DNA from: a virus | IMG/VR virus record: IMGVR_UViG_3300012936_000006 | Location: 12,767-76,766 of that record | Strand: one strand, 5' to 3' | DNA: 64,000 nucleotides | Shown: piece by piece, positions 19,283 to 58,820 of the stretch | Numbering within the stretch: position 1 is the first letter of the stretch | How the letters are laid out: every line of letters begins with the position of its first letter | Notes under the pieces: generated by a model | What the model was told of the DNA's origin: nothing | Seen by the model: only the letters and a program-made list of their open reading frames with translations | Database searches by the model: none | Translations under genes and position numbers: made by a program

Positions 19283-22200
19283 ATGACAGACCGACAGACA
19301 CCGAGCATTCCATTCGTAGGATTGCATGCACACTCAGTGGCAGGATCACCCTTTGATGGTCTCGGGTATCCACCAGAACACATGGAGTTTGCTTATCAGA
19401 ATGGCATGAACGCCTTGGCACTTACCGATCACGGCAATGCTAACGGTTTGTCTTATCAGGTTCTGCACGCTAAGAAGATGCTTGCCGACGGTAAAGACTT
19501 CAAGCCTATCTTTGGCGTTGAGGCTTACTTCGTACCTTCGATTTCAGAGTGGAAAGAAGAATATGACAAGCAGATGGCACAGAAGAAAGGTCGAGGCTCC
19601 AAGAAGAAAGGCGAGAGCCAAGGTACTGTATTTGAGACAGAAGAGCGAAAGAGCAGCGACATTCTTCGTCGTCGCCGTCACTTGATCTTGCTTGCCCAAA
19701 ACCAGCAGGGCTTGAATAATATTTTTAATCTTATCTCCAAGTCGTTCAAGCCAGAAAACTTTTATCGTTTTCCGAGGGTAGACTATGCTATGTTACGTGA
19801 GCACTCCGAAGGCGTGATCGCTGCTTCGGCTTGCCTCGGTGGAGTTTACGCAGGAGACATGTGGGAGAACAAGGATGATGGTCCTGATGCGGTTCTTAGT
19901 GCCATGCGTAAAACCACAGACAATATGTTGTCTATCTTTGGCGACAGGTGGTACCCAGAACTACAGTGGAACAACATTCCAGAACAGCACGAGTTAAACA
20001 AGTATATTATTCAGGTTGCAGAGGAAAAAGGCTTGGAGCTTATCTCCACGGCAGACAGCCATTACCCCAACCCGGATGCGTGGAAGTCGAGGCTTCTATA
20101 TAAGAAGCTAGGCTGGCTTGGCAAGGGTGGCGAGATTGACACTGAGTTGCCAGTTGATGTTGATGAAGTTGGCTACGAGCTTTACCCAAAGAATGGCGAT
20201 CAGATGTGGGAGTCCTACAAGGCTTACTCACAGGGTCACGACTACAACGATGATCTTGTGATGAGTTCGATTACCAACACACACCACATCGCTTTCGATA
20301 GGATTGAGAACTTCTTGCCGGACAACACGGTGCGCTTGCCATCGTTTGTGGTACCAGCAGGGATGACAGACACTGAGGCATTGAAGCGGTTCTGTGCAGA
20401 TAGTTTGCGCTCCCTTGTCAATCGAGATTCACAGGCGTGGTCCGAAGAGAAGAGTCTTAGGTATATTGATCGCCTAAAGTATGAGCTTGAGGTTATTTCA
20501 GAGCGTGGCTTTTGTAAATACTTTTTGACAATGAAAGCTATCTCTGATATGGCGCAAGAGCGACAACTGGTAGGTCCGGGTCGTGGTTCAGCCGCTGGTT
20601 CTCTGGTGTCTTATGTGCTAGGGATCACTCAGGTTGACCCAATCAAGTACGGACTTCAGTTTGAAAGGTTCCTTACCAAGTCGGGCAAGGGTTACCCAGA
20701 TATTGACTATGACGTTGCATCGCCAATGGAGCTTAAAGAAGAGTTGGTTGAACAGTGGGGTGAGAGCACTGTTGTTCCCATCTCTAATTGGAATACGTTG
20801 AAGCTACGTTCTCTAATCAAGGACATTTCAAAGTTTTATAATATTCCTTTTACTGAGGTCAACTCTGTGACCAGCAAGATGATTCACGAGGCAACACCCC
20901 TAGCTAAAAAGAAGCATGGTATCACGGCAGGAGTGTATGATCCGACTTGGGAAGAGGTACTTGAATACAGCAGAAGTTTGAAAACATTTTTGTCCAACTA
21001 TCCGCAGGTCGAGCCTCACGTCAAGCGTCTGGTTGGGCAGGTACGATCTTGCTCTAGACATGCCGGAGGTGTTGTGGTTGCCGAAGATCTAGACAAACAT
21101 ATGCCACTAATCTATAGTGGGGGTGTTCGTCAGACTCCGTGGTCCGAGGGGCAGAATGTTCGTCACCTTGAACCCATGGGTTTTATTAAGTTTGATATTC
21201 TAGGTCTTGCATCTCTGAGGATGATGGAGGGTGCAATCTCTCATATTCTCAAGCGGCATCATGGAGTCGAAGATCCAACTTTTAAAGACGTTCGTGATTA
21301 TTATAATGAGCACCTGCACCCTGACGTAATTAATTTTAGTGACGCCGACGTATACAAAAATATTTTTTGTGATGGTCGGTGGGCTGGAATCTTTCAGTTT
21401 ACTGAGAGCGGTGCTCAGAATTTTTGTAAGAGAGCGCAGCCTGACAACATTATTGACTTAGCAGCTATCACGTCCATCTTTCGTCCGGGTCCGTTGTCTG
21501 CCAAGGTGGACAGAAACTATGTGTCGTCTAAGAGGAATCCTGATGCGGTCGATTACCCATGTCAGGAATTCAAGGACGTTACAGAAGAGACCTATGGCTT
21601 TCTAATCTTTCAAGAACAGATCGCATCTTTGGCACACAAGCTTGGCAAAGACTTGTCACTCGATGAGGGTAACCTACTTCGAAAGCTGTTGACTAAGAAA
21701 GGTACAGGAAAGGGTCACGAGGTCAAGGATGGAATCTATAAAAAGTTTTTGACAGGCTGTGTAGAGAAAGGGCTAGAAGAGTCACAAGCGGTTCGGCTTT
21801 GGGAGACTTTCGAATACTTCTCTGGTTATGGTTTTAACAAGTCTCATGCGGTGTCGTACTCGATCCTGTCTTATCAGTGTGCTTGGCTCCTGAACTATTA
21901 CCCAGCAGAATGGATGGCTGCTTTCTTGGATAAGGAGCCTGAAAGTCGAAAAGAAAAGGCACTGAACATTGCGAAATCTATGGGCTTCAGGATTAAGCCA
22001 CTGGATGTAAATACATCTGGTTCTGTGTGGGAGATTTCTGAAGATGGTCAAGACTTGGTTCAGCCGCTGACTTCTATCAAGGGCTTGGGTGACTCTGCGA
22101 TGCAGCAGATCATGCAGCACCGCCCTTTTAATACTGTCGAAGACTTTCTTTTCAACGAAGAGATTGTCTACTCCAAGCTAAATAAAAAAGCCTTGGATGT

Positions 22201-22723
22201 TCTTGCTCGCAGTCAAGCTTTGAACTGCTTAGTTGATGATAGGTTCACGGGGCTGAAGCATTTTTGGTCGTCAGTAGCCGTCGATAGACCTAAGAGTAAG
22301 AAGAAGTTGCTTGAAAATATCGAGGCATACTCACCAGAAGGAGACTTTACAGATCAGGAGAAGATTGAATATCTTGTTCGCCTGACAGGTTCTTTTCCCA
22401 TGAGTTTGGTTCTGAGCGACGATGTGATGGCTAGCCTTGAGAGGTATTGTGTCCCTCCGCTTGGTGAGTTTGATCCTGAGATTGGGGTAGCTTGGTTTAT
22501 CCCCAGAGAGGTCATTTCTAAAAAGACTAAGAACGGCAAGACATATTGGATTGTTAACACGATTGACATTAGTGGAGGTTCTAATAAAATTAAATGTTGG
22601 GGTGTTAATCCCGATAAAGATCTTCTGCACATTAACAGACCATATATGGCAAAATTAGACTATGACGAGCAGTGGGGATTTAGTGCGAGAGGGATTAAGC
22701 ACAGTTTTAAGCTACTCGCATAA
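19283..22723 (+). CDS. dnaE: DNA polymerase III alpha subunit
   Basis: PHP motifs LHAHS and ALTDHG, GPGRGSAAGSL, PDIDYD, HAGG, KFDILGL, FRPGP, YGFNKSHA. Confidence 0.96.
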   Translation: MTDRQTPSIPFVGLHAHSVAGSPFDGLGYPPEHMEFAYQNGMNALALTDHGNANGLSYQVLHAKKMLADGKDFKPIFGVEAYFVPSISEWKEEYDKQMAQKKGRGSKKKGESQGTVFETEERKSSDILRRRRHLILLAQNQQGLNNIFNLISKSFKPENFYRFPRVDYAMLREHSEGVIAASACLGGVYAGDMWENKDDGPDAVLSAMRKTTDNMLSIFGDRWYPELQWNNIPEQHELNKYIIQVAEEKGLELISTADSHYPNPDAWKSRLLYKKLGWLGKGGEIDTELPVDVDEVGYELYPKNGDQMWESYKAYSQGHDYNDDLVMSSITNTHHIAFDRIENFLPDNTVRLPSFVVPAGMTDTEALKRFCADSLRSLVNRDSQAWSEEKSLRYIDRLKYELEVISERGFCKYFLTMKAISDMAQERQLVGPGRGSAAGSLVSYVLGITQVDPIKYGLQFERFLTKSGKGYPDIDYDVASPMELKEELVEQWGESTVVPISNWNTLKLRSLIKDISKFYNIPFTEVNSVTSKMIHEATPLAKKKHGITAGVYDPTWEEVLEYSRSLKTFLSNYPQVEPHVKRLVGQVRSCSRHAGGVVVAEDLDKHMPLIYSGGVRQTPWSEGQNVRHLEPMGFIKFDILGLASLRMMEGAISHILKRHHGVEDPTFKDVRDYYNEHLHPDVINFSDADVYKNIFCDGRWAGIFQFTESGAQNFCKRAQPDNIIDLAAITSIFRPGPLSAKVDRNYVSSKRNPDAVDYPCQEFKDVTEETYGFLIFQEQIASLAHKLGKDLSLDEGNLLRKLLTKKGTGKGHEVKDGIYKKFLTGCVEKGLEESQAVRLWETFEYFSGYGFNKSHAVSYSILSYQCAWLLNYYPAEWMAAFLDKEPESRKEKALNIAKSMGFRIKPLDVNTSGSVWEISEDGQDLVQPLTSIKGLGDSAMQQIMQHRPFNTVEDFLFNEEIVYSKLNKKALDVLARSQALNCLVDDRFTGLKHFWSSVAVDRPKSKKKLLENIEAYSPEGDFTDQEKIEYLVRLTGSFPMSLVLSDDVMASLERYCVPPLGEFDPEIGVAWFIPREVISKKTKNGKTYWIVNTIDISGGSNKIKCWGVNPDKDLLHINRPYMAKLDYDEQWGFSARGIKHSFKLLA

Positions 22724-26429: not shown

Positions 26430-26921
26430 TTGGAAATATTTTTAGGATTTATTTTTGGCTACGTGGTCGGCAACATCTATTCCAGACTAGTTACCATGAA
26501 GCGAGAGAGGATGGCAGTAACCATGGCTCAAATTCAGGCTTTAAGGTTGTTTTCGCAAAGCGTGCTCCACTATGGGCATCTAAGACAGTGGCATGATAAT
26601 GTCGCAATTGGTCTCGATGACATTAAGACAAGCGCACTTGAAAAAGCTGCTGAATCAGAATCATTATCCCTAAAAGAACTAGATGAACTGTCCCAGTTTT
26701 GGAACAGCAGCTATGAACAGGATCTAAAGTCGCTTTGGAACAACTTTGAGTACGATATGCGGGGGTTTAAAGAAACCTCAGTTTCGTTGATTCGAGAGTC
26801 GTTCACGGGTTATGGCGACCCACCTTATGAAACTTGGCAGCAGGCTATGCATTGGCTGGCAATGTTTGAGATGAAACTAAAACAGCAACAGAAATTGGAG
26901 GATGTAAAAGATGCAGAATGA
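26430..26921 (+). CDS. Hypothetical membrane-anchored protein
   Basis: N-terminal hydrophobic helix. Confidence 0.5.
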   Translation: MEIFLGFIFGYVVGNIYSRLVTMKRERMAVTMAQIQALRLFSQSVLHYGHLRQWHDNVAIGLDDIKTSALEKAAESESLSLKELDELSQFWNSSYEQDLKSLWNNFEYDMRGFKETSVSLIRESFTGYGDPPYETWQQAMHWLAMFEMKLKQQQKLEDVKDAE

Positions 26922-28272
26922 TGTTTTAATGCTTGAAGAGTTGAGAAAACTCGTCAGAAGTGAAATGGAGGCTGCGGAAAGACTGCGCCCTAGTTTCTTG
27001 CTAGAGAGCCCCGAGGCACTCGACGAAATCGGTGCAAAGAAAAATAAATATGCCATGAAAGCGGTGTTTCTTTTCGGTCCAGCAGGTGCAGGTAAGGGTT
27101 TTATTTCAAATGACTTTTTGGGGATTCCGACTCAAGAAAAGGGGGTCAAGAACGGTTTTTATACTTACAACCCAGACAACTTCATCGAAGATATTTTCCC
27201 AGCGTTTGGAATTCCACTGAAATTTGCTAATGCGGCAGAGGGTGATGATGCCTCTCTAGAAGATTTTCAGCAAAAGGTTCGTGAGCAAATTCAACAGTGG
27301 GCAAAGAACGAAGGTGTAATGAAGCTGATGGGAGCACAGCCGATTCTTTTTGACACTACTGGTGAAAAAGTAAAAAAGATGGTCGGGAGAATTAAAAAAC
27401 TTACCAAGATGGGATACAAAGTAGGGGTTGCCCAGATCTATGTACCTAGAGAGATTTCAGTCTCTAGAGATCAAGGTCGAGAAAGGACAGTCGGCGCAAG
27501 TCGCACAGCAGACATTAACGACAAATATCGTGATCAGGTGGTAAAAGCCAGAGGGTACTTTGAGTCACTGGGTGGTCTTGATGGTGTAGAAATTTTTGGC
27601 TCAGGTGTTTATCCCAACTTGTTTGAACTAGATCCAGAGTCAGGAACCGTTGGTCAGCCTCTCCCCGGCGTTACACAGGACATGTTAGATTCACTTGATA
27701 TAGATCAGCAAAAGGCTCAGGCACTTTTGGATGAAATGAAAACTGATGCCGAGGCGTTTCTTAATTCACCCAGAACAAAAACAGGCGAGATGCTATATCA
27801 GGCACAGCGAAGAATGATTAAGCTGACAGGTAGCAAGGGCGGTCGTCACTTTGGTAGCCACAGTTTGGCAGATTTGGAAATGATTTATGCAGAAGCTTTT
27901 CAAGAAGAGTTCCCAGAAGCAGCTAGTGATCCACTAATTAATCAGGCAGCTAAATATTTAGCATCTCTTGGTGGCGTGGAGAATGCGGCATCAACTAGTG
28001 GTGCTCTCCCCGGCGACAAGCCCGAGCTTGATGGCACCCTGCGCTCACAAGATTCTAAACATATGATTGATACAGACAAGACAAACCCTATCAAGGTTGG
28101 TCAAGAGTTTCCTAAGAATGTAAAAAAGGGCGAATTTGGTCCCAATCCCCGTCAGGGACGAAACCCTGATAGCAAGGGTCGTGCCAAGGTCAGGGTCAGA
28201 GAGAGCTTCGAGGACAGCATCCGAGAGATTGTTAGAGAATCTGTCTTGAGAATAAAAAAGAATAATCTGTGA
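26911..28272 (+). CDS. Zeta-toxin-like P-loop kinase
   Basis: KAVFLFGPAGAGKG, YNPD, LFDTTG, SVSRDQGRERTV. Confidence 0.6.
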   Translation: MQNDVLMLEELRKLVRSEMEAAERLRPSFLLESPEALDEIGAKKNKYAMKAVFLFGPAGAGKGFISNDFLGIPTQEKGVKNGFYTYNPDNFIEDIFPAFGIPLKFANAAEGDDASLEDFQQKVREQIQQWAKNEGVMKLMGAQPILFDTTGEKVKKMVGRIKKLTKMGYKVGVAQIYVPREISVSRDQGRERTVGASRTADINDKYRDQVVKARGYFESLGGLDGVEIFGSGVYPNLFELDPESGTVGQPLPGVTQDMLDSLDIDQQKAQALLDEMKTDAEAFLNSPRTKTGEMLYQAQRRMIKLTGSKGGRHFGSHSLADLEMIYAEAFQEEFPEAASDPLINQAAKYLASLGGVENAASTSGALPGDKPELDGTLRSQDSKHMIDTDKTNPIKVGQEFPKNVKKGEFGPNPRQGRNPDSKGRAKVRVRESFEDSIREIVRESVLRIKKNNL

Positions 28273-41155: not shown

Positions 41156-41818
41156 ATGAAAGAAGAACTAGAAACGTGGAGAAAGTTTTTGAAAGAAAAC
41201 GAGGGCGCAACGGGAATGCAAAAATATAAGTTGTTCTGTGATATGGACGGCGTGCTAGTAGACTTCGAAAAGGGAGTCCTTGGCTATATGAACCAACGCA
41301 TGGAGGCTTTAGCCGGTGGTGGCGAGCCTGTGAGCAGAGAAGAATTGAAAGACGCTGCTTTGGCTGTAGAAGCCATGGGCGGTTGGTTCGAGGTCAAGCC
41401 AGAGCACATCAAGCGACCCAGCGAAGGCGGTGTTGCTGAGGTTCGAGACCTGATGTACACGATGGTCGAAAACAACTATGAGGTGTGGGCAAACTTGCCT
41501 TGGATTCCGGGTGGCAAAGAGCTTTGGAATCACATCAAGCAATACAACCCTGAGATCTTGACGGCTCCGATGGGACCAGAGAGTGAGCGGGGGAAAGAAA
41601 CGTGGTGTGCTCGTGAGTTAGGTTCGGATATTCCTGTTAACATCACGGACAATAAGACTCCGTGGGGTCAGGGAGATGGCAAGCGACAAGGTTTGTTAAT
41701 CGACGACCGTGAGAAGTACCGTGCTCAGTTTAAAAAGGGCGGCGGTGAAGTAGTGCCTCATACGCCGGGTGATGCCGGTCCTTCGATTGAGCGATTAAAA
41801 ACGCTCGGCTTTCAATAG
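41156..41818 (+). CDS. HAD-family 5'(3')-deoxyribonucleotidase (NT5C-like) with WRKFL leader
   Basis: FCDMDGVLVDF, ILTAP, GKETW, LIDDR; N-terminus MKEELETWRKFLKE. Confidence 0.8.
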   Translation: MKEELETWRKFLKENEGATGMQKYKLFCDMDGVLVDFEKGVLGYMNQRMEALAGGGEPVSREELKDAALAVEAMGGWFEVKPEHIKRPSEGGVAEVRDLMYTMVENNYEVWANLPWIPGGKELWNHIKQYNPEILTAPMGPESERGKETWCARELGSDIPVNITDNKTPWGQGDGKRQGLLIDDREKYRAQFKKGGGEVVPHTPGDAGPSIERLKTLGFQ

Positions 41819-41850
41819 TCGCCTCTACTTATTATAAGGAGGGTTGAATA

Positions 41851-41919
41851 ATGAGTGAATCAAACAAGTGTAAGTGTTGTCCGTGTTGCAAGTGCGATTG
41901 CGAAAATTGCTGCGAATAA
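41851..41919 (+). CDS. Metallothionein-like 22-aa peptide (not in ORF track)
   Basis: MSESNKCKCCPCCKCDCENCCE with 9 Cys; AAGGAGG RBS; CTACTTA upstream. Confidence 0.6.
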   Translation: MSESNKCKCCPCCKCDCENCCE

Positions 41920-41978
41920 ATTACTAAAAAGTTTCGTTTTCGCTCATTATGCCCTAATTATATTATAAAGAGGGTTGA

Positions 41979-42395
41979 TTGGTGAAATTAGAAAATAATT
42001 TTAGTTTGTCGGAATTTAGATGTAGAGATGGTTCAGATGTTCCAGAAGAACTGATGGACAACGTGCGTCTTTTGGCTGAAAACCTACAGGTCTTGAGAGA
42101 CTATATTGGAAGACCCGTTAAAATAATTTCCGGGTATAGATCGCCAGATTATAATAAAAAGATCGGCGGTGCAAAGCGCAGTCAGCACATGCTTGCAAAA
42201 GCGGCTGATATTAAGATTGAAGGCATGGAGCCTTGGATGGTTCATAAGATAATCGAGCATCTTATCTATGAAGGGCATATGATGAAAGGAGGTCTCGGGA
42301 TATACGAGACATTTGTACATTATGATGTGCGAGGTAGAAACGCCAGATGGAAAGGCAAAGGTGTGAAGGATGATAGACCAGCGACAAAATATTAG
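41979..42395 (+). CDS. Peptidase M15 (D-Ala-D-Ala carboxypeptidase-like)
   Basis: FSLSEFRC, ISGYRS, SQHMLAKAADI, FVHYDVRG. Confidence 0.9.
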   Translation: MVKLENNFSLSEFRCRDGSDVPEELMDNVRLLAENLQVLRDYIGRPVKIISGYRSPDYNKKIGGAKRSQHMLAKAADIKIEGMEPWMVHKIIEHLIYEGHMMKGGLGIYETFVHYDVRGRNARWKGKGVKDDRPATKY

Positions 42396-42397
42396 TT

Positions 42398-42715
42398 ATG
42401 ATAGACTTGACAGACTCAGCAGCAAATAAAATAAAAGAAGTATTAAAAGATACTGAAAATACCGGAGTTCGTGCCGCCATTCAAGGCGGCGGGTGCTCCG
42501 GTTTTACTTATAAACTAACAATGGAAAAAGAGCCAGATCCTGATGACAAGGTTATCGAGATTAAGGGTGTGAAGTTGTTCGTAGATAAGAAGAGCTACTT
42601 ATTCCTCATCGGAACCACTATAGATTTCGTCACCGAGATGATGCAAATGGGTTTTAAATTTATTAATCCGAATGCTAAAAGAACTTGCGGTTGTGGCGAA
42701 AGTTTTGGGATTTAA
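42398..42715 (+). CDS. iscA: A-type Fe-S cluster carrier (IscA/SufA/HesB)
   Basis: GGGCSGF and CGCGESF. Confidence 0.93.
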   Translation: MIDLTDSAANKIKEVLKDTENTGVRAAIQGGGCSGFTYKLTMEKEPDPDDKVIEIKGVKLFVDKKSYLFLIGTTIDFVTEMMQMGFKFINPNAKRTCGCGESFGI

Positions 42716-42763
42716 ACGCTTAAACAGACTATTTATTAAAGATGCCGAAGAGAGGATATTTTT

Positions 42764-43009
42764 ATGCAGAATTTGTTTGAAAATTGGAGAAAGTTTCTCG
42801 AAGAAATTGAAGCAGAAGAACTGCAAGAAAAGTCTAAATCAAAGAATCAGCAAAAATTTATGGGCATGGTCAAGAAGTGTCAAGAAACTGGCGATTGTGC
42901 CTCAGATGAGGTAGAGAAAACAGCCGACAGTATGGAGAAATCTGATGTAGACGACTTTGCCAAAACAAAACACAAAGGATTACCAGATAAAGTAGAGGAT
43001 AAAAAATGA
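42764..43009 (+). CDS. DUF3008-like protein with WRKFL leader
   Basis: MQNLFENWRKFLEE; KSKNQQKFMGMV...DFAKTKHKGLPDKV. Confidence 0.6.
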   Translation: MQNLFENWRKFLEEIEAEELQEKSKSKNQQKFMGMVKKCQETGDCASDEVEKTADSMEKSDVDDFAKTKHKGLPDKVEDKK

Positions 43010-44871
43010 AACTATTAATGGAAAACTGGCGAAACTTTCTCGCAGAAGAAGAAAAGAATTGTGGTTGTGGTCAAGATCCTTGCATCACTTACGGAGTACA
43101 GAACGAAGCCAAAGAAGATGAAGGATATGAGCCCCACATGATGTACAATCCTAAAACTGGCGAAAAGAAAAAAGCCAAGACTAAAGAAGAGCATGAATCA
43201 CTGGGTGCATCAGGTTGGCAGCACGTCAACCCTGATGAGATCCGCAAAGCTTTAGAGGATGAGGGCGGTGCTGCTGACACCGATGCTATCGTAGACAGAA
43301 CAGATGCAAGTGGCAAAGAAGTAAAAAAAGCTATGAAAGACATGCCTGACGTTGCTCAACATGATAAAGGTGACTACATTCTTGGCGATAAAGATAAGAT
43401 AAAAATTGAAGAAGATTGCTGGGATGGTTACGAGAGAGTTCCGGGCTCTAAAGAGGGAGAGCCGGGATCTTGTCGAAAGAAAACAAATGAAGGTGCTGGT
43501 CACGCCGAATCCATTCTTCAAGCACAAAACCAAGGCGTTGCTTTTATTCGTGGTCAAGACGATAAAGCAGCAGGTAAGGAAAAGGATCCTAACTATTCTG
43601 AAGAAAGTGGACGTAATCCTTTAGAAGTTCTTTTTTATAATGCTGGTTATGACAAAGGGATGGATGAAAATTTTTCGTCGAAGACTGAAGCCTCTTTTGG
43701 TGATAAAAGCGCAACAACATTTACGACCCAGCAGATGAATGACGAAGAAGAAACTGCTGCCGAAATAGAAAGTGCTATTGTCTCGCTTGCAAAAGAAAAA
43801 GGTATGAGTGCTGAAGAGCTAAAAGCAGCGATTCTGGGAAATATAAAAAATAAGAAAGGCATTTCCGTTGAGCAAGCAGCAATTGATGAAGCAGAAATCT
43901 GCAAAGCAGGAAAAGATTGGGTCGATGGCAAGGAGATCGGAGGACAAGTTGTTAAACGAGGCGAAGACGGCAAGTTTAATAATTGGTCTGCTCGTGCAGC
44001 ACAGATTGCTTCCAACTATTGCAAAAATCCTAACTACGGTAGAGGGAAGAAGAAAAAGAAGAACGAATCGATGAGTGAGGGCGATCTTGGCGATTGGGAA
44101 AAAGAAAACTGGACACACTCAGACGGCACACCCTGCGGCGGTGGCGACAAGGACGGTTCACAGAGCCGATGCAAGCCAGCTTCCAAGTGGAAAGGCATGA
44201 GCAAGGGTGAGAAAGCAGCCGACAATGCAAAGAAAAAAGCTGGCACAGATGCAGGCAAGCAATATGTTTCAGCTACCAAGAAAGGAAAGGTTACTAAAGC
44301 TCACACAAAAGAAGCCCAAGTTGCCGATATTTTAGCAAGAGTGTTTGAGGGGTGTGGTGAACCTGCTCCTGTAAATTATGATCACGGTCCAGAGGCATCA
44401 ATGCATAGAAGCTCCCTTCACACAATTAAGGGCGAAGTCGAACAGCTTCTATATATGATTGGTGAACAAGATGATTTACCTGAATGGCTAGAAGCAAAGA
44501 TTACGAAAGCAAAAGCATATTTGTCTGCTGCAAAAGATTACTTGTCAGGTGAACAGGCTGAGATGGCAGGCGCACTTGAAGAGCAGCTTGCAGATGCGAT
44601 TGTGGTAGAGTATCTTGAAGAAGATAATATGGACGAAGGCGGCAGATGCACAAAGGCAACTGAGAAAACTACCTCTACTCGCAAGGGCAAGAAGTACATG
44701 AAGTGTATCAAGAATCCAGACGGTGAAGGTTATATTAGAAAACACTGGGGTCAGAAAGGTGCTAGAGCAGCACCAAAGGGATCTAAAAGAAACAAGAGCT
44801 TTAACAAGCGACATAAGTGCTCAACCGCAAAAGCGGGTACAGCAAGAAAATTAGCATGTGATGATTGGTAG
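43006..44871 (+). CDS. Multi-module polyprotein-like protein with WRxFL leader
   Basis: MKLLMENWRNFLAEE, then short modules separated by x-x-E linkers. Confidence 0.6.
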   Translation: MKLLMENWRNFLAEEEKNCGCGQDPCITYGVQNEAKEDEGYEPHMMYNPKTGEKKKAKTKEEHESLGASGWQHVNPDEIRKALEDEGGAADTDAIVDRTDASGKEVKKAMKDMPDVAQHDKGDYILGDKDKIKIEEDCWDGYERVPGSKEGEPGSCRKKTNEGAGHAESILQAQNQGVAFIRGQDDKAAGKEKDPNYSEESGRNPLEVLFYNAGYDKGMDENFSSKTEASFGDKSATTFTTQQMNDEEETAAEIESAIVSLAKEKGMSAEELKAAILGNIKNKKGISVEQAAIDEAEICKAGKDWVDGKEIGGQVVKRGEDGKFNNWSARAAQIASNYCKNPNYGRGKKKKKNESMSEGDLGDWEKENWTHSDGTPCGGGDKDGSQSRCKPASKWKGMSKGEKAADNAKKKAGTDAGKQYVSATKKGKVTKAHTKEAQVADILARVFEGCGEPAPVNYDHGPEASMHRSSLHTIKGEVEQLLYMIGEQDDLPEWLEAKITKAKAYLSAAKDYLSGEQAEMAGALEEQLADAIVVEYLEEDNMDEGGRCTKATEKTTSTRKGKKYMKCIKNPDGEGYIRKHWGQKGARAAPKGSKRNKSFNKRHKCSTAKAGTARKLACDDW

Positions 44872-44883
44872 GAGGAGCCAAAA

Positions 44884-45045
44884 ATGAAAAGTTTATTAAC
44901 ATTATTAACAATTATTATGCTTGCGCTTGCAGGCTGCGGAGATGATTGCACATCTGCACCAGACACTGGTGTTGATGCGGGTGGCACTGATGCAGCTATC
45001 GATGCAGGCGGTGATGCAGGCGACGTTGGCGGCGATAGTCAATGA
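44884..45045 (+). CDS. Small lipoprotein with DAG repeats, 53 aa (not in ORF track)
   Basis: AGGAGG RBS; lipobox LAGC; tail DTGVDAGGTDAAIDAGGDAGD. Confidence 0.7.
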   Translation: MKSLLTLLTIIMLALAGCGDDCTSAPDTGVDAGGTDAAIDAGGDAGDVGGDSQ

Positions 45046-45413
45046 TCAACTGGCTGAGATCACGCAGACCGTGGATGATTGAGAATTCAAAGATTCCAGT
45101 CTTTTTGTCTCACTTTGCGCCAATTAATATTTGGGCAATATCGTTTGGTCCGTTTGTTTGGTGTCGTGGCGTTATGTCGGAGACAACCAAGAGACACGAA
45201 ATTATCCACTATCACCAGCAACTAGAACTAGCTTTCATAGGCCAATGGACCTTATACCTCATTTTTTACCTACGTGGTCTGATTAGAGGCGGTGCTGGTT
45301 CTGGCGAAGAAGCTTATAGGGCTAATGCATTCGAAGTGGAGGCATACACGCATGAGGCAGAAATTGATTACTTAGAGAAGAGACCACTTTATAATTGGAG
45401 AAATTACTTATGA
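45042..45413 (+). CDS. HExxH zincin-like protein
   Basis: RHEIIHYHQQ...AYRANAFEVEAY. Confidence 0.6.
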   Translation: MINWLRSRRPWMIENSKIPVFLSHFAPINIWAISFGPFVWCRGVMSETTKRHEIIHYHQQLELAFIGQWTLYLIFYLRGLIRGGAGSGEEAYRANAFEVEAYTHEAEIDYLEKRPLYNWRNYL

Positions 45414-45655
45414 GATTAAAATCTAGAGCACGACAGATTATCATTGAAGAGATCTTGAGGGAGAATGACGAAAGGGCAGCATCGGGTGCCGAGTCATTAG
45501 GTAGTTCATTGGGTGGACGCCCAGATGTAGCTATGGCTATCGAAGCAGTTCTTAAAGAAAAGGGTCTTCCAAAATCCGCAGCAGCATTGATGAAGGCGTA
45601 TAAGTCTGCACAAGCTGAAATGGATATGGAATATTCTTTACATTACCCGGAATAG
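45410..45655 (+). CDS. Hypothetical protein with RQIIxEE leader
   Basis: MRLKSRARQIIIEEILRE. Confidence 0.5.
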   Translation: MRLKSRARQIIIEEILRENDERAASGAESLGSSLGGRPDVAMAIEAVLKEKGLPKSAAALMKAYKSAQAEMDMEYSLHYPE

Positions 45656-45663
45656 GTGATATA

Positions 45664-45858
45664 TTGTTTGAAGGTGCAAAAAAACATTTGGAAGAGAGAG
45701 GTGAGACATACTTTGAGCATATGCAAGCAGCGGCAAGTTTAGCTTTGATGTTAGCTGTTGTTAGTTTGAAGTGTGTTGTTCACTCGGTGTTTCCAAATTA
45801 TTATAAAACTTGTGTATCAGATAAATTATCAGATATTCAAAAAATGGTAAAGAGGTAA
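45664..45858 (+). CDS. DUF6356-like small protein
   Basis: HLEERGETYFEHM...VHSVFP. Confidence 0.55.
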   Translation: MFEGAKKHLEERGETYFEHMQAAASLALMLAVVSLKCVVHSVFPNYYKTCVSDKLSDIQKMVKR

Positions 45859-45863
45859 TTTCG

Positions 45864-46679
45864 ATGAAACAATTAATGGAAAGCTGGCGAAACTTTATGA
45901 AAGAGCAGAGCCAGATCGAAGAAACTGGTGCCGGTGGTTATCAATACGAAGAGTATGTCATTAATGCACTGAAGACGGCAGGAGCCGTTGGTAATATTAC
46001 CTCCGGTGCGGGGGCTTCAGCAGCAGCGGCTGACGCTGACATTAGAGTAAATGGCAAGGTTTATAATATTGAAGTAAAGATGGACGGCAAAGCCCAGATG
46101 GGCGGCACATCTCTCAGGTACTTTCCGCAGGGTGTGCCATCTGATGACCCTTCAGCACCCGAGGGTAAACTACAGAAGTTTGTCATTGTCTCAAACTCTG
46201 TTGAGCCTGACACTGTTACAATGATGGAAGAGGCTCTGACACCCCTAGAGCAAGATTTAAATAACTTCTTAGAGGCGATTGGTGCAACTAAGATGCCTGC
46301 AACGGTCGAGAAAGATCTTTGGGCGGCAGCGGTAGCAGAGGGTTTGCTTAGACCACTCAACGTAAAACTAAAAAGAACAACCAAGTTTATTATTAACCAC
46401 TACGCTAAAAAAGGTGTAGACTATATACAGATCGGCGGGGCAGGGCTATTTTATTTAGCGAACAATCCAGCAAACTTGCCGGTTCCTCAGCTTGACGGAG
46501 AGATCAATATTGAGCTTAGACCCGGAAGAAGTGGGAGTAAGAAAAGAAAAGACGGCACTGTGGTTGTCGGCGGCTTGATTCGTGTACAGGGTCGATTGCA
46601 GTTTAGGGGTCAGTCACCTTACACACTTGACGATCCTCAAAGCATTGCAGAGATGCTAAAAGAGGCAAACTCGGCATGA
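45864..46679 (+). CDS. PD-(D/E)xK nuclease-like protein with WRxF leader
   Basis: MKQLMESWRNFMKE; YEEYV...ADADI...IEVK; DYIQIGGAGLF. Confidence 0.55.
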   Translation: MKQLMESWRNFMKEQSQIEETGAGGYQYEEYVINALKTAGAVGNITSGAGASAAAADADIRVNGKVYNIEVKMDGKAQMGGTSLRYFPQGVPSDDPSAPEGKLQKFVIVSNSVEPDTVTMMEEALTPLEQDLNNFLEAIGATKMPATVEKDLWAAAVAEGLLRPLNVKLKRTTKFIINHYAKKGVDYIQIGGAGLFYLANNPANLPVPQLDGEINIELRPGRSGSKKRKDGTVVVGGLIRVQGRLQFRGQSPYTLDDPQSIAEMLKEANSA

Positions 46680-46945
46680 AACAGTTAATGGAAAATTGGC
46701 GACGATATAAGCGCATGTCCGAGGTATCTTATGATGGAAACATTGGGTTCGAAGAGACTGTAAGGTTTTATCAATCTGCACCCAAAGAAAAAATAGCTGA
46801 GTTTGAGGCTATGCTGGACAGTGGAGATGAAAAGAGTGCTATGGGTATTATCCTTGATTTTCTTGGCACTTCACTGCAAGGTGACCAATTCCCGCAGATG
46901 AAAGCTGTTGCTGAAGCCATAGAAGTGGAGAGGGACCAAGAATGA
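46676..46945 (+). CDS. Hypothetical protein with WRxY leader
   Basis: MKQLMENWRRYKRMSE. Confidence 0.6.
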   Translation: MKQLMENWRRYKRMSEVSYDGNIGFEETVRFYQSAPKEKIAEFEAMLDSGDEKSAMGIILDFLGTSLQGDQFPQMKAVAEAIEVERDQE

Positions 46946-47625
46946 AACAATTAATGGAAAATTGGCGCAAGTTTCTAAACGAGGGAATAGACTCCCGCAT
47001 TCAGAAACAGATTGATATGGTGATTCAGCTTCCCGACGTAGGCATTACCATCTCTCGGGGTGGTTTCGGCAGGAGTATTAGATATGTTCTCATCGAAGAC
47101 GCTGAAACTCAGCAATACTCCGAACTAACTTATAATGATGCACTCGGTGACAAGAAAGATTATCCTCACGGAGAAGTTGATATTATGAAAACGTCTGAAG
47201 ATTCCGAAGGACCATGTTTGGATGGCTGGACCGTCACGGCTGCTGAAGCTAGAAAGGGGTGGGGTCCACTTCTTTATGAGGTGGCGATTGAATATGCTTC
47301 ACAGAATGGTGGAGGTCTCACGCCAGACAGGTTCTCAGTATCACGACACGCAATGGCTGTGTGGGACAAGTATGCCACCCGAGATGGTGTTGATGCTCAG
47401 CAGATGGACACCAATCATGACCCCAGCGCAATGGGCGCAAGGGTGAATACAACAGTTCCGCAGTTGACGCCCGATGACAAGTCAGATGACTGTGATCAGT
47501 CGAGAGCTATTTCTAAAGACGGAGAAAACTGGCACAAGAACTCAACGACGAAAATGTATAAGAAAGACAATCCAGAAGTAATGCAGGCACTTAAATCTGC
47601 GGGGAGGCTAATTATAGCGGTATGA
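46942..47625 (+). CDS. GNAT-like acetyltransferase with WRKFL leader
   Basis: MKQLMENWRKFLNE; ARKGWGPLLYEVA (acetyl-CoA motif A); VSRHAMAVW. Confidence 0.55.
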   Translation: MKQLMENWRKFLNEGIDSRIQKQIDMVIQLPDVGITISRGGFGRSIRYVLIEDAETQQYSELTYNDALGDKKDYPHGEVDIMKTSEDSEGPCLDGWTVTAAEARKGWGPLLYEVAIEYASQNGGGLTPDRFSVSRHAMAVWDKYATRDGVDAQQMDTNHDPSAMGARVNTTVPQLTPDDKSDDCDQSRAISKDGENWHKNSTTKMYKKDNPEVMQALKSAGRLIIAV

Positions 47626-48185
47626 AAGAATTAATGGAAAATTGGCGAGGCTACATTAATGAGCAAGAAAGAATTGCTTTAGAAGAGGGCGTCTTTCAAG
47701 ATGCCATGACTTGGTTGAAGGACAAGGGACGGCAAGCTCAGGAGAAAGCAAAAAAGTTTCTTGAAAGTTTAAGAGAAGAGCTTGCTGAGACTAAAGTTGG
47801 TATTATGCTCTTGCAGAAGATTGCCGCAGGAAAAGAACTAAGTGATGACGAATCTCAATTCTTAAAAGATCAGGCAAAAGATATAGCTAGTGGCACTGCG
47901 CTGCTTGGGCTCTTTGCTCTGCCCGGTGGTGGTATCGCATCGGCAGCGTTGCTAAAGATGGCTCGAAAGTTTGGGGTTGAGCTTATGCCAAGTTCTTTTC
48001 TTGACGAGCCAGAGCTAGCAGAACGTGACTGGCAAAAAGAATCTGAAAAGCTAAAAGATCATCCGAACAAGAAAGCTAGGATTTTAGACACAGGTGCCAA
48101 TAAGGAAACTGGCGGCGGCACTGGGCATCGGAAGCTCGATAAACGCCGAGGTAAAAGCGCACCACCCGGAGCAGGCGGGGTATAA
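47622..48185 (+). CDS. Membrane-helix (LETM1-like) protein with WRxY leader
   Basis: MKELMENWRGYINE; DQAKDI...LLGLFALPGG; C-terminal KSAPPG. Confidence 0.5.
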   Translation: MKELMENWRGYINEQERIALEEGVFQDAMTWLKDKGRQAQEKAKKFLESLREELAETKVGIMLLQKIAAGKELSDDESQFLKDQAKDIASGTALLGLFALPGGGIASAALLKMARKFGVELMPSSFLDEPELAERDWQKESEKLKDHPNKKARILDTGANKETGGGTGHRKLDKRRGKSAPPGAGGV

Positions 48186-57385: not shown

Positions 57386-57569
57386 TTTAGTTCAATGTGT
57401 CGGCAAAAAAATAGGCGAGCCCGAGATCGGAGAGATTGGAATTATCATCAAGTCCGAAAAAGGCATCGTTGTAGCTTGCGTTACGCACAGAGGCAAAGGG
57501 CGTATTTGGACTGAGGATTGGCAAATCATATCTAAAGGATATTTATTAAAGGAGCAAATTAAATTATGA
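57366..57569 (+). CDS. GDLV-family SH3/KOW-like protein
   Basis: MSVGDLVQC...IGIII. Confidence 0.55.
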   Translation: MQMSVGDLVQCVGKKIGEPEIGEIGIIIKSEKGIVVACVTHRGKGRIWTEDWQIISKGYLLKEQIKL

Positions 57570-57826
57570 AAAAATTATTCGAAGAATTCCGAAGCTTTGT
57601 AGCCGAAGGTGAGGTAAGCGTGGAACAAGTTGTTAGCGAACTTGAAGGGCTGCAAGATGATTTGAATGGGGAAATTAGATCTTTTCAAAGCTTTGAAGGC
57701 GACCCAAAGAATCGTAGTGGTGCAAGTATCGAAGAACTATCGTTTGAGCGAGGCTCAGCCGAAGCAAAGCGAGAAGTCATCGAAAAACTTGAAGCGATCA
57801 TTAGCATGATCAAGGGGGTACAATGA
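57566..57826 (+). CDS. Hypothetical protein with FRSF leader variant
   Basis: MKKLFEEFRSFVAE. Confidence 0.55.
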   Translation: MKKLFEEFRSFVAEGEVSVEQVVSELEGLQDDLNGEIRSFQSFEGDPKNRSGASIEELSFERGSAEAKREVIEKLEAIISMIKGVQ

Positions 57827-58791
57827 AAGAGTTATTAACAGAGTGGAGAAAGTTTTTAAAAGAAAACAAGTCGCTTTCATTCACCGTAATCGAAGACGAG
57901 GATGACGGAGGACCAGCGGTGAGGATCGACGGTATCGATCTGTCTTTTCAAGATATGCTGTCTCAGCTTAATGGTCAAGTTGTGGATTTCAATGACGGCG
58001 ATGAGCCAGAAGAATTTAACTTTTCCGACATGGGTGGTGCTGAAGATGCAGAAGATGCAGAGCTATACATGGTTCGCAACGGGATCGCTCATTATTATGT
58101 TGAGGCGTGGGCTCACATGAACGGATATAGTGCCAAACAGACGGGTGGATTTCACGAAGTGCAAGATTTAATGGAAGGCTGGAGGCAGAGGCTCAACGAA
58201 TCCGGGCTCAATCGCCTGCGTAAGCATATGATGGCGCATGACTGCGCTATCCTTACAGCATTTAGAAATGATCTAAATGATATGTCTCAGTGTGCCGATG
58301 GTGCCGAGACTCCAGAAGAGGGCGTAAAAGATATTAATCGTAACCGTGATCTAAAAGCTACGCTGCTAGGAATGAAGATTGGTGTTACAAAGGTCGATGG
58401 TTCTTATGTCGAGGACTTTGATACGCCGATTGCCAAAGAAGTAAAAGAAGCAAGCTTGTTCTGTGTCAATCTAAACGATGACGGCAACTTCTTCGAGACA
58501 ATCCAGAAGCTAGGCGAAAAGTATTGTCAGGATTCCGTGCTTTGCATTCCGAAGGGTGGCGAAGGTGCTTTTCTTTTCGGGACGAACAACGCAGAGTTTC
58601 CCGGCTACGGACAGCGAGTTGACGTTGGCAATGCCAACTTTGGAGATGAGGCTGAATTTATGACGAAGATTCGTAACAAACCAATGACTTTCAATGAAGA
58701 GCAAGAAGTTGTCTTGGAGACTTACAGTGCGCTGCCTCGACAGCAGCGCATGGCTGTGATGGCAATTACAAGAAAATTTCTTAACATCTAA
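57823..58791 (+). CDS. Double-leader protein with C-terminal T3 SAMase-like (SAM lyase) domain
   Basis: MKELLTEWRKFLKE and internal VQDLMEGWRQRLNE; ILTAFR...NRNRDL...GSYVE...KEAS...YCQDSVL. Confidence 0.55.
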   Translation: MKELLTEWRKFLKENKSLSFTVIEDEDDGGPAVRIDGIDLSFQDMLSQLNGQVVDFNDGDEPEEFNFSDMGGAEDAEDAELYMVRNGIAHYYVEAWAHMNGYSAKQTGGFHEVQDLMEGWRQRLNESGLNRLRKHMMAHDCAILTAFRNDLNDMSQCADGAETPEEGVKDINRNRDLKATLLGMKIGVTKVDGSYVEDFDTPIAKEVKEASLFCVNLNDDGNFFETIQKLGEKYCQDSVLCIPKGGEGAFLFGTNNAEFPGYGQRVDVGNANFGDEAEFMTKIRNKPMTFNEEQEVVLETYSALPRQQRMAVMAITRKFLNI

Positions 58792-58820
58792 AAAAATATA
58801 TTATATAATTGGAGTATAAC

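What the first reader, a model, noticed from the sequence alone, without database searches (positions are those of the whole stretch)
58159..58791. T3-type SAM lyase domain carrying the putative packaging tag
Seen: ILTAFRND...INRNRDLKATL...GSYVED...KEASLFCV...LGEKYCQDSVL. As I recall it, T3 gp0.3 SAMase has the same ordered motifs (VSAFR...N..R.R...GCYRE...EEKT...EQDCVL). Known: T3 SAMase destroys SAM and thereby blocks type I RM and BREX. Inference: a SAM lyase injected with the genome would act before any phage transcription, unlike the early-expressed T3 enzyme.
Basis: partly seen in the sequence, partly recalled or inferred. Interest (0 to 1): 0.8.

Follow-up and report, generated by a model that had tools for sequence, protein, structure and literature searches.

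The report
Phage SAM lyase with capsid-targeting leader
A marine T4-type phage encodes a SAM-destroying (anti-restriction) enzyme that begins with a short leader like the one phage T4 uses to load proteins into its head, so the enzyme is probably injected together with the DNA; in this genome it is also fused in frame to a second leader-tagged protein of unknown function.

Summary
ORF 57823-58791 (+, 322 aa) holds every quoted motif. Residues 113-322 belong to Pfam S-AdoMet_lyase (PF23780, 36.4 bits, cut-off 28), the family of T3 gp0.3. An AlphaFold model matches T3 SAM lyase best (Z 8.2/8.1), then Svi3-3 (Z 5.9/5.7). The SAM-binding residues G193, Y195, E206 and Q236-D237 are invariant in 24 relatives.

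Relatives encode residues 1-112 and 113-322 as separate genes, each a "leader, [LIV]-x-E, cargo" module. Contigs from three marine studies show a plain 212-aa leader+lyase gene starting at the same ATG. This window therefore carries a net 330-nt in-frame insertion holding an acidic cargo of unknown fold.

The capsid-targeting reading is well supported but unproven:
- Nine window ORFs share the leader.
- 182 of 183 lyase-domain starts follow [LIV]-x-E.
- Some homologs carry near-exact T4 capsid-targeting sequences.
- In cultured phage PANV1 the lyase closes an array of genes with T4-style leaders.
- The contig has a T4 Gp23 capsid gene, and close relatives encode the T4-type prohead protease.

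Substrate (SAM or SAM-AMP), packaging and expression timing remain untested. I class it as a new variant of known kinds. First-reader notes in this scan had already flagged the leader array on this same genome.

The parts
57823..58791 (+). Composite ORF, 322 aa plus stop: leader 1, cargo A, internal leader, lyase domain.
57823..57864 (+). Leader 1 (aa 1-14, MKELLTEWRKFLKE), ending in L-K-E. The same leader starts eight other ORFs in the window and many genes in related contigs.
57865..58158 (+). Cargo A (aa 15-112): acidic (22 D/E against 4 K/R, pI 4.05), no known family or fold. In eight relatives it is a stand-alone 113-159 aa gene ending ...GGF[NYHD].
58159..58200 (+). Internal, degenerate leader (aa 113-126, VQDLMEGWRQRLNE). 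GTG 58159 sits where relatives have the ATG of the lyase gene. A weak SD-like GGGTGGA lies 11-17 nt upstream. It ends in L-N-E directly before the conserved SGL-x-RL start of the domain.
58201..58788 (+). S-AdoMet lyase-family domain (aa 127-322), the predicted mature enzyme. The Pfam PF23780 match covers aa 169-268 (58327-58626).
58399..58536 (+). Span holding the SAM-binding residues G193, Y195, E206, Q236, D237 and S238, which equal Svi3-3 G56, Y58, E69, Q104, E105 and S106. E206 aligns to T3 E68 and Q236/D237 to T3 Q94/D95. All are invariant in 24/24 relatives.
57834..58190 (+). 357-nt segment absent from close relatives, which have 27 other nt here. This is a net 330-nt (110-codon) in-frame insertion whose two ends lie in leader-coding DNA.
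57566..57826 (+). Upstream 86-aa gene with a leader variant (MKKLFEEFRSFVAE). Its stop overlaps ATG 57823. It is conserved next to the lyase gene in relatives.
41156..48185 (+). Context: array of seven further leader-bearing genes (starts 41156, 42764, 43006, 45864, 46676, 46942, 47622). One resembles a deoxyribonucleotidase. A candidate late-promoter motif lies 35 nt upstream of 42764.

Best explanation
Shown: the ORF is built from two 'leader, [LIV]-x-E, cargo' modules. Module 2 (aa 113-322) is a T3-type member of the S-adenosylmethionine lyase family with an intact SAM-binding site. Module 1 (aa 1-112) is an acidic protein of unknown function that was inserted in frame into the leader of the lyase gene, with both crossovers in leader-coding DNA.

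Inferred mechanism: the N-terminal 14-residue amphipathic leader works like the T4 capsid-targeting sequence. It directs the protein into the scaffolding core of a T4-type prohead. The gp21-type prohead protease then cuts after Glu of L-x-E, at E14 and probably at E126. This frees cargo A and a ~196-aa lyase, which stay in the head and are ejected with the DNA.

Inferred consequence: in the new host the lyase cleaves SAM to methylthioadenosine and homoserine lactone before any phage gene is expressed. That would starve SAM-dependent defences such as type I restriction and BREX.
For: Lyase family:
- PF23780 at 36.4 bits against a cut-off of 28. T3 gp0.3 itself scores 143 bits in this model, and cultured-phage homologs score 65.8 bits.
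- All 120 listed homologs carry PF23780.
- Model pLDDT 72.9, pTM 0.74.
- The seven best Foldseek PDB hits are all SAM lyases.
- VIA-align: 8bb1_E Z 8.2 (120 aa), 7ock_K Z 8.1, 6zm9 Z 5.9, 6znb Z 5.7; unrelated folds reach at most 5.5.
- G-x-Y, Glu and Q-[DE]-S have the same spacing as in Svi3-3 and T3 and are invariant.

Composite ORF:
- P0002 (212 aa, 95% identity) equals aa 111-322. P0122 (113 aa, 88%) equals aa 1-112 and then stops.
- Contigs from three studies join 57833 to 58191 through 27 nt. The joined form encodes MKELMENWRRYVKLNES, the N-terminus of P0002.

Leader as capsid-targeting signal:
- T4 IPII/IPIII start MKTYQEFIAE|A. In T4 the first 10 residues suffice for targeting, and residues 8 and 10 (I-x-E) direct gp21 processing.
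- Nine unrelated ORFs in the window share the leader. L004 has eight such genes in a row.
- 183 lyase-domain starts have an aliphatic residue at -3 in all cases and Glu at -1 in 182.
- Both cargoes occur behind interchangeable leader types.
- Homologs P0223 and P0143 start MKTYKDFLNE and MKRYKDFIKE.
- In cultured phage PANV1 the lyase homolog gp48 (MKTFSEFLGE|SGLSRI) closes an array of genes with the same 10-aa T4-style leader.
- The contig itself encodes a Gp23-family capsid protein (E 1.6e-60).
- 7 of 8 larger genomes with the lyase or the leader encode Peptidase_S77. Three of these have capsid proteins 75-78% identical to this contig's, with the protease 3-6 kb upstream of the capsid gene. 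In this contig that position lies beyond the truncated end.
Against: - There is no direct evidence of packaging, cleavage or enzyme activity.
- The conserved L-x-E-S could be the structural N-cap of the domain's first helix rather than a cleavage site.
- Sequence links to solved SAM lyases are weak: no phmmer or profile hit in the PDB, hhalign probability only 10.8%, and borderline Foldseek E-values.
- A phage protein of this fold cleaves SAM-AMP and not SAM.
- No prohead protease gene lies on this 42%-complete contig.
- The lyase gene sits among small genes, with no clear late-promoter motif directly upstream.
- The fused form is known only from this one assembly.
- An internal leader cannot act as an N-terminal signal.
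Confidence: 0.55

Rival explanations
1. The enzyme has the lyase fold but acts on another sulfonium compound, most plausibly SAM-AMP, the type III CRISPR/CorA signal. It would then be an anti-CRISPR rather than an anti-restriction or anti-BREX factor, whether or not it is packaged.
For: A phage-encoded member of the SAM lyase fold family cleaves SAM-AMP efficiently, with no SAM lyase activity detected, and keeps the same catalytic Glu. The window protein is about 60 aa longer than T3 SAMase and has extra N- and C-terminal elements. Its sequence similarity to characterised SAM lyases is low, at 15-16% identity.
Against: The best structural matches are the two T3 SAM lyase entries, not a SAM-AMP lyase. 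The residues that hold the methionine moiety of SAM in Svi3-3 and T3 are all conserved. Those residues would also be needed for SAM-AMP, so this does not discriminate strongly.
Confidence: 0.17
2. The shared leader is not a capsid-loading signal. It could be a conserved 5' cassette that serves recombination or translation initiation, or a peptide for another localisation or interaction. In that case the lyase acts as an ordinary cytoplasmic protein made after infection, as in T3.
For: Both crossover points of the cargo-A insertion lie in leader-coding DNA. Leader copies are 67% identical at the nucleotide level. No late-promoter motif lies directly upstream of the lyase gene. The lyase gene lies far from the head genes.
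Against: 24% of codon pairs encoding the same residue differ, so the peptide is conserved through synonymous change. Unrelated leader sequences all keep [LIV]-x-E at the junction. Some homologs carry near-exact T4 capsid-targeting sequences, and PANV1 has a T4-like array. All tested lineages have the T4-type head and protease. T4 internal-protein genes also lie away from the head genes.
Confidence: 0.2
3. The 322-aa fusion protein is not what the phage makes. Either the metagenome assembly is chimeric or erroneous at the junction, or the lyase is translated separately from GTG 58159 while cargo A is a dispensable read-through product.
For: All eight cargo-A relatives and every one of the 61 viral lyase loci, plus the listed homologs of similar size, are stand-alone genes. 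GTG 58159 occupies the position of the homologs' ATG, with an SD-like GGGTGGA upstream. The fused form was seen in this assembly only.
Against: The two leader copies share only short identical runs, too short to mislead an assembler. The insertion is exactly in frame (330 nt) with no stop in 112 codons. Fused and tandem architectures of this domain exist elsewhere, each copy preceded by L-x-E-S (P0149, P0157, P0183, P0189, P0227).
Confidence: 0.25

Closest known systems
Phage T3 gp0.3 SAM lyase (SAMase; PDB 7OCK, 8BB1)
   Same: Same Pfam family PF23780. It is the best structural match, Z 8.2 over 120 residues. It has the same ordered motifs, with G-x-Y, the catalytic-site Glu (T3 E68 = E206) and Q-D (T3 Q94/D95 = Q236/D237).
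   Different: T3 SAMase is 152 aa and is described as the first phage protein expressed on infection, with no leader. Its N-terminal tail binds host MetK. The window enzyme is about 196 aa after the leader, only ~15% identical, carries a capsid-targeting-like leader and is fused to another cargo. MetK binding was not tested.
Svi3-3 SAM lyase (PDB 6ZM9, 6ZNB)
   Same: Same fold core and the same SAM-binding residues G56, Y58, E69, Q104, E105 with identical Y-to-E spacing of 11 residues.
   Different: It is a weaker structural match (Z 5.9/5.7). Svi3-3 is a PII-like trimer with active sites at subunit interfaces, whereas the window model resembles the larger monomeric barrel of T3.
T4 internal proteins IPI/IPII/IPIII and Alt with the capsid targeting sequence
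   Same: A short N-terminal leader shared by unrelated proteins and ending in aliphatic-x-Glu. Genes lie in variable arrays. The phage has a Gp23-type head, and relatives have a gp21-type protease. T4 IPI is itself an anti-restriction protein delivered this way.
   Different: The window's leader is 14 rather than 10 residues and has a W-R core. At least three leader types are interchangeable on the same cargo. The cargo here is a metabolite-destroying enzyme. None of the papers listed by the search links a SAM lyase with virion packaging. Two cargoes are strung in one ORF.
Candidate AcrIIIB4, a phage SAM-AMP lyase
   Same: [quoted passage not shown]
   Different: It comes from a human-microbiome phage and acts on SAM-AMP only. 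It did not appear among the top structural matches listed, and no leader has been described for it.

Membership tests
S-adenosylmethionine lyase family (Pfam PF23780; T3 gp0.3, Svi3-3) | Match to the family profile above the curated gathering score | tested here: met
   36.4 bits against a cut-off of 28, E 5.8e-9, aa 169-268. T3 gp0.3 scores 143 bits in the same model.
S-adenosylmethionine lyase family (Pfam PF23780; T3 gp0.3, Svi3-3) | Fold like the solved SAM lyases | tested here: met
   8bb1_E Z 8.2, rmsd 4.0, 120 aa; 7ock_K Z 8.1; 6zm9 Z 5.9; 6znb Z 5.7; unrelated chains at most 5.5. The seven best Foldseek hits are all SAM lyases, with E-values from 1.2e-3. The model has moderate confidence, pLDDT 72.9.
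S-adenosylmethionine lyase family (Pfam PF23780; T3 gp0.3, Svi3-3) | Conserved SAM-binding residues (Svi3-3 G56, Y58, E69, Q104, E105; T3 E68, Q94, D95) | tested here: met
   G193, Y195, E206, Q236 and D237 (plus S238) are present and invariant in 24/24 relatives. The register is supported by hhalign to T3 gp0.3 and by the published residue roles.
S-adenosylmethionine lyase family (Pfam PF23780; T3 gp0.3, Svi3-3) | Cleaves SAM to 5'-methylthioadenosine and homoserine lactone | not testable with these tools
   This needs an enzyme assay. A fold relative cleaves SAM-AMP instead.
S-adenosylmethionine lyase family (Pfam PF23780; T3 gp0.3, Svi3-3) | Oligomeric state / MetK binding | not tested
   The state is not uniform in the family: Svi3-3 is a trimer, and T3 SAMase is monomeric on MetK and dimeric when free. 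An oligomer prediction would therefore not discriminate and was not run.
T4-type capsid-targeted internal proteins (CTS system) | Short N-terminal leader shared by otherwise unrelated proteins | tested here: met
   Nine ORFs in the window. Tandem arrays occur in L001-L006, with eight genes in L004. PANV1 gp41-gp48 form such an array.
T4-type capsid-targeted internal proteins (CTS system) | Leader ends in the gp21 processing motif, aliphatic-x-Glu | tested here: met
   In T4 the motif is I8-x-E10. The window has L12-K-E14 and L124-N-E126. Across 183 domain starts, -3 is L/I/V/M in all and -1 is E in 182. L12 and E14 are invariant in the cargo-A family despite different leaders.
T4-type capsid-targeted internal proteins (CTS system) | Phage builds a T4-type (Gp23) head | tested here: met
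   PF07068 Gp23, E 1.6e-60, at the 5' end of the contig. Sheath, tube and baseplate genes follow.
T4-type capsid-targeted internal proteins (CTS system) | Phage encodes a gp21-type prohead protease (Peptidase_S77) | tested here: inconclusive
   None lies on this 42%-complete contig, which starts inside the capsid gene. It is present in 7 of 8 larger related genomes. Three of these have capsid proteins 75-78% identical, with the protease 3-6 kb upstream of the capsid gene.
T4-type capsid-targeted internal proteins (CTS system) | Expressed when heads are assembled | tested here: inconclusive
   A candidate late motif, CTATTTAT, occurs 12 times on the + strand and once on the - strand. It precedes five structural genes and leader gene 42764. 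Upstream of 57566/57823 there is only a degenerate 7-mer, which is not specific.
T4-type capsid-targeted internal proteins (CTS system) | Protein present in virions, N-terminally processed, and ejected | not testable with these tools
   No virion proteome was found for any carrier.

The most novel reading that the evidence does not exclude
Environmental T4-type phages run a modular effector-loading system. Several interchangeable capsid-targeting leaders, each ending in a prohead-protease site, are attached to diverse enzymes, among them SAM lyases. The leader-coding DNA doubles as a recombination handle that shuffles cargo cassettes. It can also string two cargoes into one polyprotein that the protease separates inside the head. 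The SAM lyase would then be delivered as protein and would act before any phage transcription.
Probability: 0.4. Interest if true: 0.8.

Novelty: new variant of a known kind. Interest (0 to 1): 0.66.

Why it matters
SAM lyases are known only as early-expressed anti-restriction and anti-BREX enzymes. Capsid-targeting sequences have been studied mainly in T4 and its close relatives.

If the enzyme is really loaded into the head, this would be a metabolite-destroying counter-defence delivered as protein together with the genome. That would close the window in which SAM-dependent defences can act on unmodified incoming DNA.

The family is large: 835 cluster representatives at E ≤ 0.001. It is common in marine viral contigs, so the strategy would be widespread.

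The leader/[LIV]-x-E rule gives a simple sequence signature for predicting the injected proteome of uncultured T4-type phages. The insertion documented here shows how such arsenals may be rearranged.

PANV1 is a cultured phage in which all of this can be tested.

Tried and rejected
- Sequence searches of the whole ORF and of the family profile against PDB chains gave no SAM lyase hit. The link to solved structures rests on Pfam and on the fold.
- The search for related loci with the whole ORF returned only leader matches, in both viral and metagenome contigs.
- No Peptidase_S77 was found on the contig itself. The contig is truncated inside the capsid gene, which explains this.
- The T4 late-promoter core TATAAATA is not informative here: there is one + strand match, and it is not upstream of a leader gene.
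- Cargo A gave no Pfam, PHROG, PADLOC or NCBIfam family. It had no fold match (Foldseek best E 0.65, VIA-align wide best Z 3.5) and no Atlas lead. A DNA-mimic role was considered because of its acidity, but nothing supports it.
- In the four runs laid, no contig covered 57864-58162. The cargo-A insertion therefore has no independent confirmation, and this lack of cover is not evidence against it.
- No virion proteomics was found for PANV1 or the other cultured carriers.
- P0223, which has the near-T4 leader, has no close cultured relative.
- Complex prediction was not used, because the oligomeric state differs within the family.

Full report
**1. The observation**

The window holds an uninterrupted + strand ORF at 57823-58791 (322 aa).

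In a profile alignment the T3 strings VSAFR, NMSRHRH, GCYRE, PTEE-KT and EQDCVL align in order with AFRND, NRNRD, GSYVE, AKE and CQDSVL of the window protein.

**2. Is it a SAM lyase?**

- *Pfam.* Pfam-A gives S-AdoMet_lyase (PF23780) at 36.4 bits, above the curated cut-off of 28. The characterised T3 enzyme scores 143 bits in the same model, so this is the family built around it. Homologs from cultured phages (PANV1 gp48, CP220 gp189) score 65.8 bits. All 120 listed homologs carry PF23780.
- *PDB sequence searches.* Direct sequence or profile searches of PDB chains find nothing.
- *Fold.* I folded residues 113-322 with a 24-sequence alignment (pLDDT 72.9, pTM 0.74). The seven best Foldseek hits among 350,542 chains are all phage SAM lyases, with borderline E-values. 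VIA-align gives T3 SAM lyase Z 8.2 and 8.1 (120-121 residues), Svi3-3 Z 5.9 and 5.7, and then generic ferredoxin-like folds at Z 5.5 or lower.
- *Active-site residues.* The published SAM-binding residues of Svi3-3 are G56, Y58, E69, Q104 and E105. In T3 they are E68, Q94 and D95. They correspond to G193, Y195, E206, Q236 and D237. The Tyr-to-Glu spacing of 11 residues is identical, and all are invariant in 24 of 24 relatives.

Family membership is therefore well supported. "T3-type" is the right label.

The substrate is not settled. A phage protein of this fold cleaves SAM-AMP and not SAM.

**3. The ORF is composite**

An exhaustive search found 835 cluster representatives at E ≤ 0.001. Relatives of residues 113-322 are nearly all stand-alone proteins of 200-240 aa. 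The closest is P0002 (212 aa, 95% identity).

Residues 1-112 match a different, small family of stand-alone proteins. These include P0122 (113 aa, 88% identity) and seven others of 115-159 aa. All of them end at ...GGF[NYHD], exactly where the window reads through. None of the 61 viral loci with a lyase gene has this partner upstream.

Laying Logan contigs from four marine, seawater or estuary runs settled the history. In three runs from three studies, a contig follows the window from 57501 to 57833. It then continues at 58191 through 27 other bases. The joined form encodes MKELMENWRRYVKLNES..., which is the N-terminus of P0002.

Relatives therefore have an ordinary leader+lyase gene starting at the same ATG (57823), right after the 86-aa gene 57566-57826. 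This window has a net 330-nt (110-codon) in-frame insertion. The insertion brings the rest of a leader, cargo A and a second, degenerate leader (VQDLMEGWRQRLNE). The second leader's GTG (58159) stands where relatives have the ATG. Both ends of the insertion lie in leader-coding DNA.

Cargo A is acidic (pI 4.05). It folds with moderate confidence (pLDDT 76) but matches no known fold or family.

**4. The leader**

Nine + strand ORFs in the window begin with MK-x-L-[LMF]-E-x-W-R-x-[FY]-[LMI]-x-E. Replication genes do not have it.

Of 285 codon pairs that encode the same residue in two leader copies, 68 use different codons, so the peptide is under selection.

Related viral contigs carry tandem arrays of such genes, eight in a row in L004.

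Across 183 lyase-domain starts, the residue at -3 is always L, I, V or M, and the residue at -1 is Glu in 182.

The part in front of that junction is interchangeable. Most homologs have the W-R leader. Some have an unrelated ...ELKxLV...LL-x-E leader, which also starts window ORF 26911. The cargo-A family uses either the W-R leader or a basic MPKFY...RYFL-x-E leader, with L and E invariant.

Two homologs carry MKTYKDFLNE and MKRYKDFIKE. T4 IPII and IPIII begin MKTYQEFIAE.

According to the literature, the first ten residues of IPIII suffice to load proteins into the T4 head. Residues 4 and 7 drive targeting, and residues 8 and 10 drive cleavage by gp21 after Glu. The internal proteins are a variable set of anti-defence proteins that share only this sequence.

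In the cultured phage PANV1, the lyase homolog gp48 (MKTFSEFLGE|SGLSRI) closes an array of genes that all start with this 10-residue T4-style leader (gp41, 42, 44, 45, 46).

**5. Does this phage have the machinery?**

The contig (76.8 kb, about 42% complete) starts inside a Gp23-family major capsid gene (E 1.6e-60). Tail sheath, tube and baseplate genes follow, and UvsX-like and gp32-like genes lie in the window.

No Peptidase_S77 gene lies on the fragment. However, 7 of 8 larger genomes carrying the lyase or the leader encode one above the Pfam cut-off. Three of them have capsid proteins 75-78% identical to this contig's. In those three, the protease lies 3-6 kb upstream of the capsid gene, which in this contig would be beyond its truncated end.

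**6. Mechanism**

*Shown:* a T3-type SAM lyase-family domain with an intact binding site; a two-module ORF made by an in-frame insertion; a leader shared by unrelated proteins that ends in aliphatic-x-Glu; and a T4-type head.

*Inferred:*
- The N-terminal leader loads the protein into the prohead core.
- A gp21-type protease cuts after E14 and after E126, releasing cargo A and a ~196-aa lyase.
- Both are ejected with the DNA.
- The lyase removes SAM before phage transcription starts.

*Order-of-magnitude inference:* T4 packages 20-200 copies of CTS-fused foreign proteins and about 300 copies of each internal protein per particle. Svi3-3 turns over about 10 SAM per second. Some hundred enzyme molecules could therefore cleave roughly a thousand SAM molecules per second.

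**7. Weak points**

- There are no virion or activity data.
- Expression timing is undetermined. A strand-biased motif, CTATTTAT, occurs 12 times on the + strand and once on the - strand, against about 1.7 expected. It precedes five structural genes and leader gene 42764. Upstream of 57566/57823 there is only a degenerate, non-specific variant.
- The T4 late core TATAAATA is uninformative.
- The fusion is known from this assembly only. Separate translation from GTG 58159, behind a weak SD-like GGGTGGA, cannot be excluded.
- The L-x-E-S junction could also be a structural feature of the domain.

**8. Comparison and novelty**

The enzyme is a new, divergent member of a known family. The leader system is a variant of the T4 capsid-targeting principle. 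The combination is the new part: a SAM lyase as capsid cargo, interchangeable leaders, and a two-cargo fusion produced by recombination within leader DNA. None of the papers listed by the search links a SAM lyase with virion packaging.

First-reader notes of this scan had already flagged the leader array on this genome. I tested that idea here with independent data.

Noticed in passing
L014:900-9230 (contig bases 1-12766) and window 25658, 42729, 51713, 52895: The motif (A)CTATTTAT(AT) occurs 12 times on the + strand and once on the - strand, against about 1.7 expected. It lies 20-85 nt upstream of five structural genes, and also before ORFs 25727, 42764 and 51763. It is a candidate late promoter of this phage lineage, and its core is the reverse complement of the T4 late core.
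   Followed up: partly
window 26911-28272 (+): This 453-aa ORF has a Zeta_toxin-like P-loop kinase domain (PF06414, 24.3 bits against a cut-off of 22.3). Its N-terminus (…EELRKLVRSEMEAAERLRPSFLLES…) matches the second leader type found on some lyase homologs (E 1e-6 to P0019). It may be another capsid-loaded enzyme that uses a different leader.
   Followed up: partly
window 41156-41818 (+): A leader-bearing ORF resembles a 5'-3' deoxyribonucleotidase (phrog_2643, E 2.3e-16). This is a second recognisable enzyme behind the same leader.
   Followed up: no
window 19283-22723 (+) with L014:55-831: The phage combines a T4 Gp23-type head, a UvsX-like recombinase and a gp32-like SSB with a DnaE-like (Pol III alpha) polymerase, rather than a T4-type family B polymerase.
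   Followed up: no
window 58781-58809 (+): A sigma70-like promoter (TTAACA, 17 nt, TATAAT; 11 of 12 matches) overlaps the end of the lyase ORF, just before the small ORF at 58809. The lyase therefore probably ends a transcription unit.
   Followed up: no
proteins P0149, P0183, P0157, P0227, P0189: Other lineages have tandem duplications of the lyase domain, or fusions to a second domain that looks distantly similar. Each unit is preceded by L-x-E-S, which fits protease-separable polyproteins. P0189 (769 aa) has the same length as an uncharacterised protein of cyanophage P-TIM40 that was a top structural hit.
   Followed up: no
L008:1728-4585 (Paraglaciecola Antarctic GD virus 1, gp41-gp48): This is an array of six genes with 10-residue T4-style leaders (MK[ST]F..[FY][ILM].E) in a cultured phage that encodes Peptidase_S77. 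All are annotated as hypothetical proteins. It is a ready experimental system for internal-protein biology outside the T-even phages.
   Followed up: partly
L004:8216-12208 (IMG/VR contig of 174.6 kb, about 95% complete): Eight consecutive genes each start with MKxLLTEWRK[FY][LI]xE and have unrelated bodies. The same genome has a capsid protein 75% identical to this contig's, and a Peptidase_S77 gene.
   Followed up: partly
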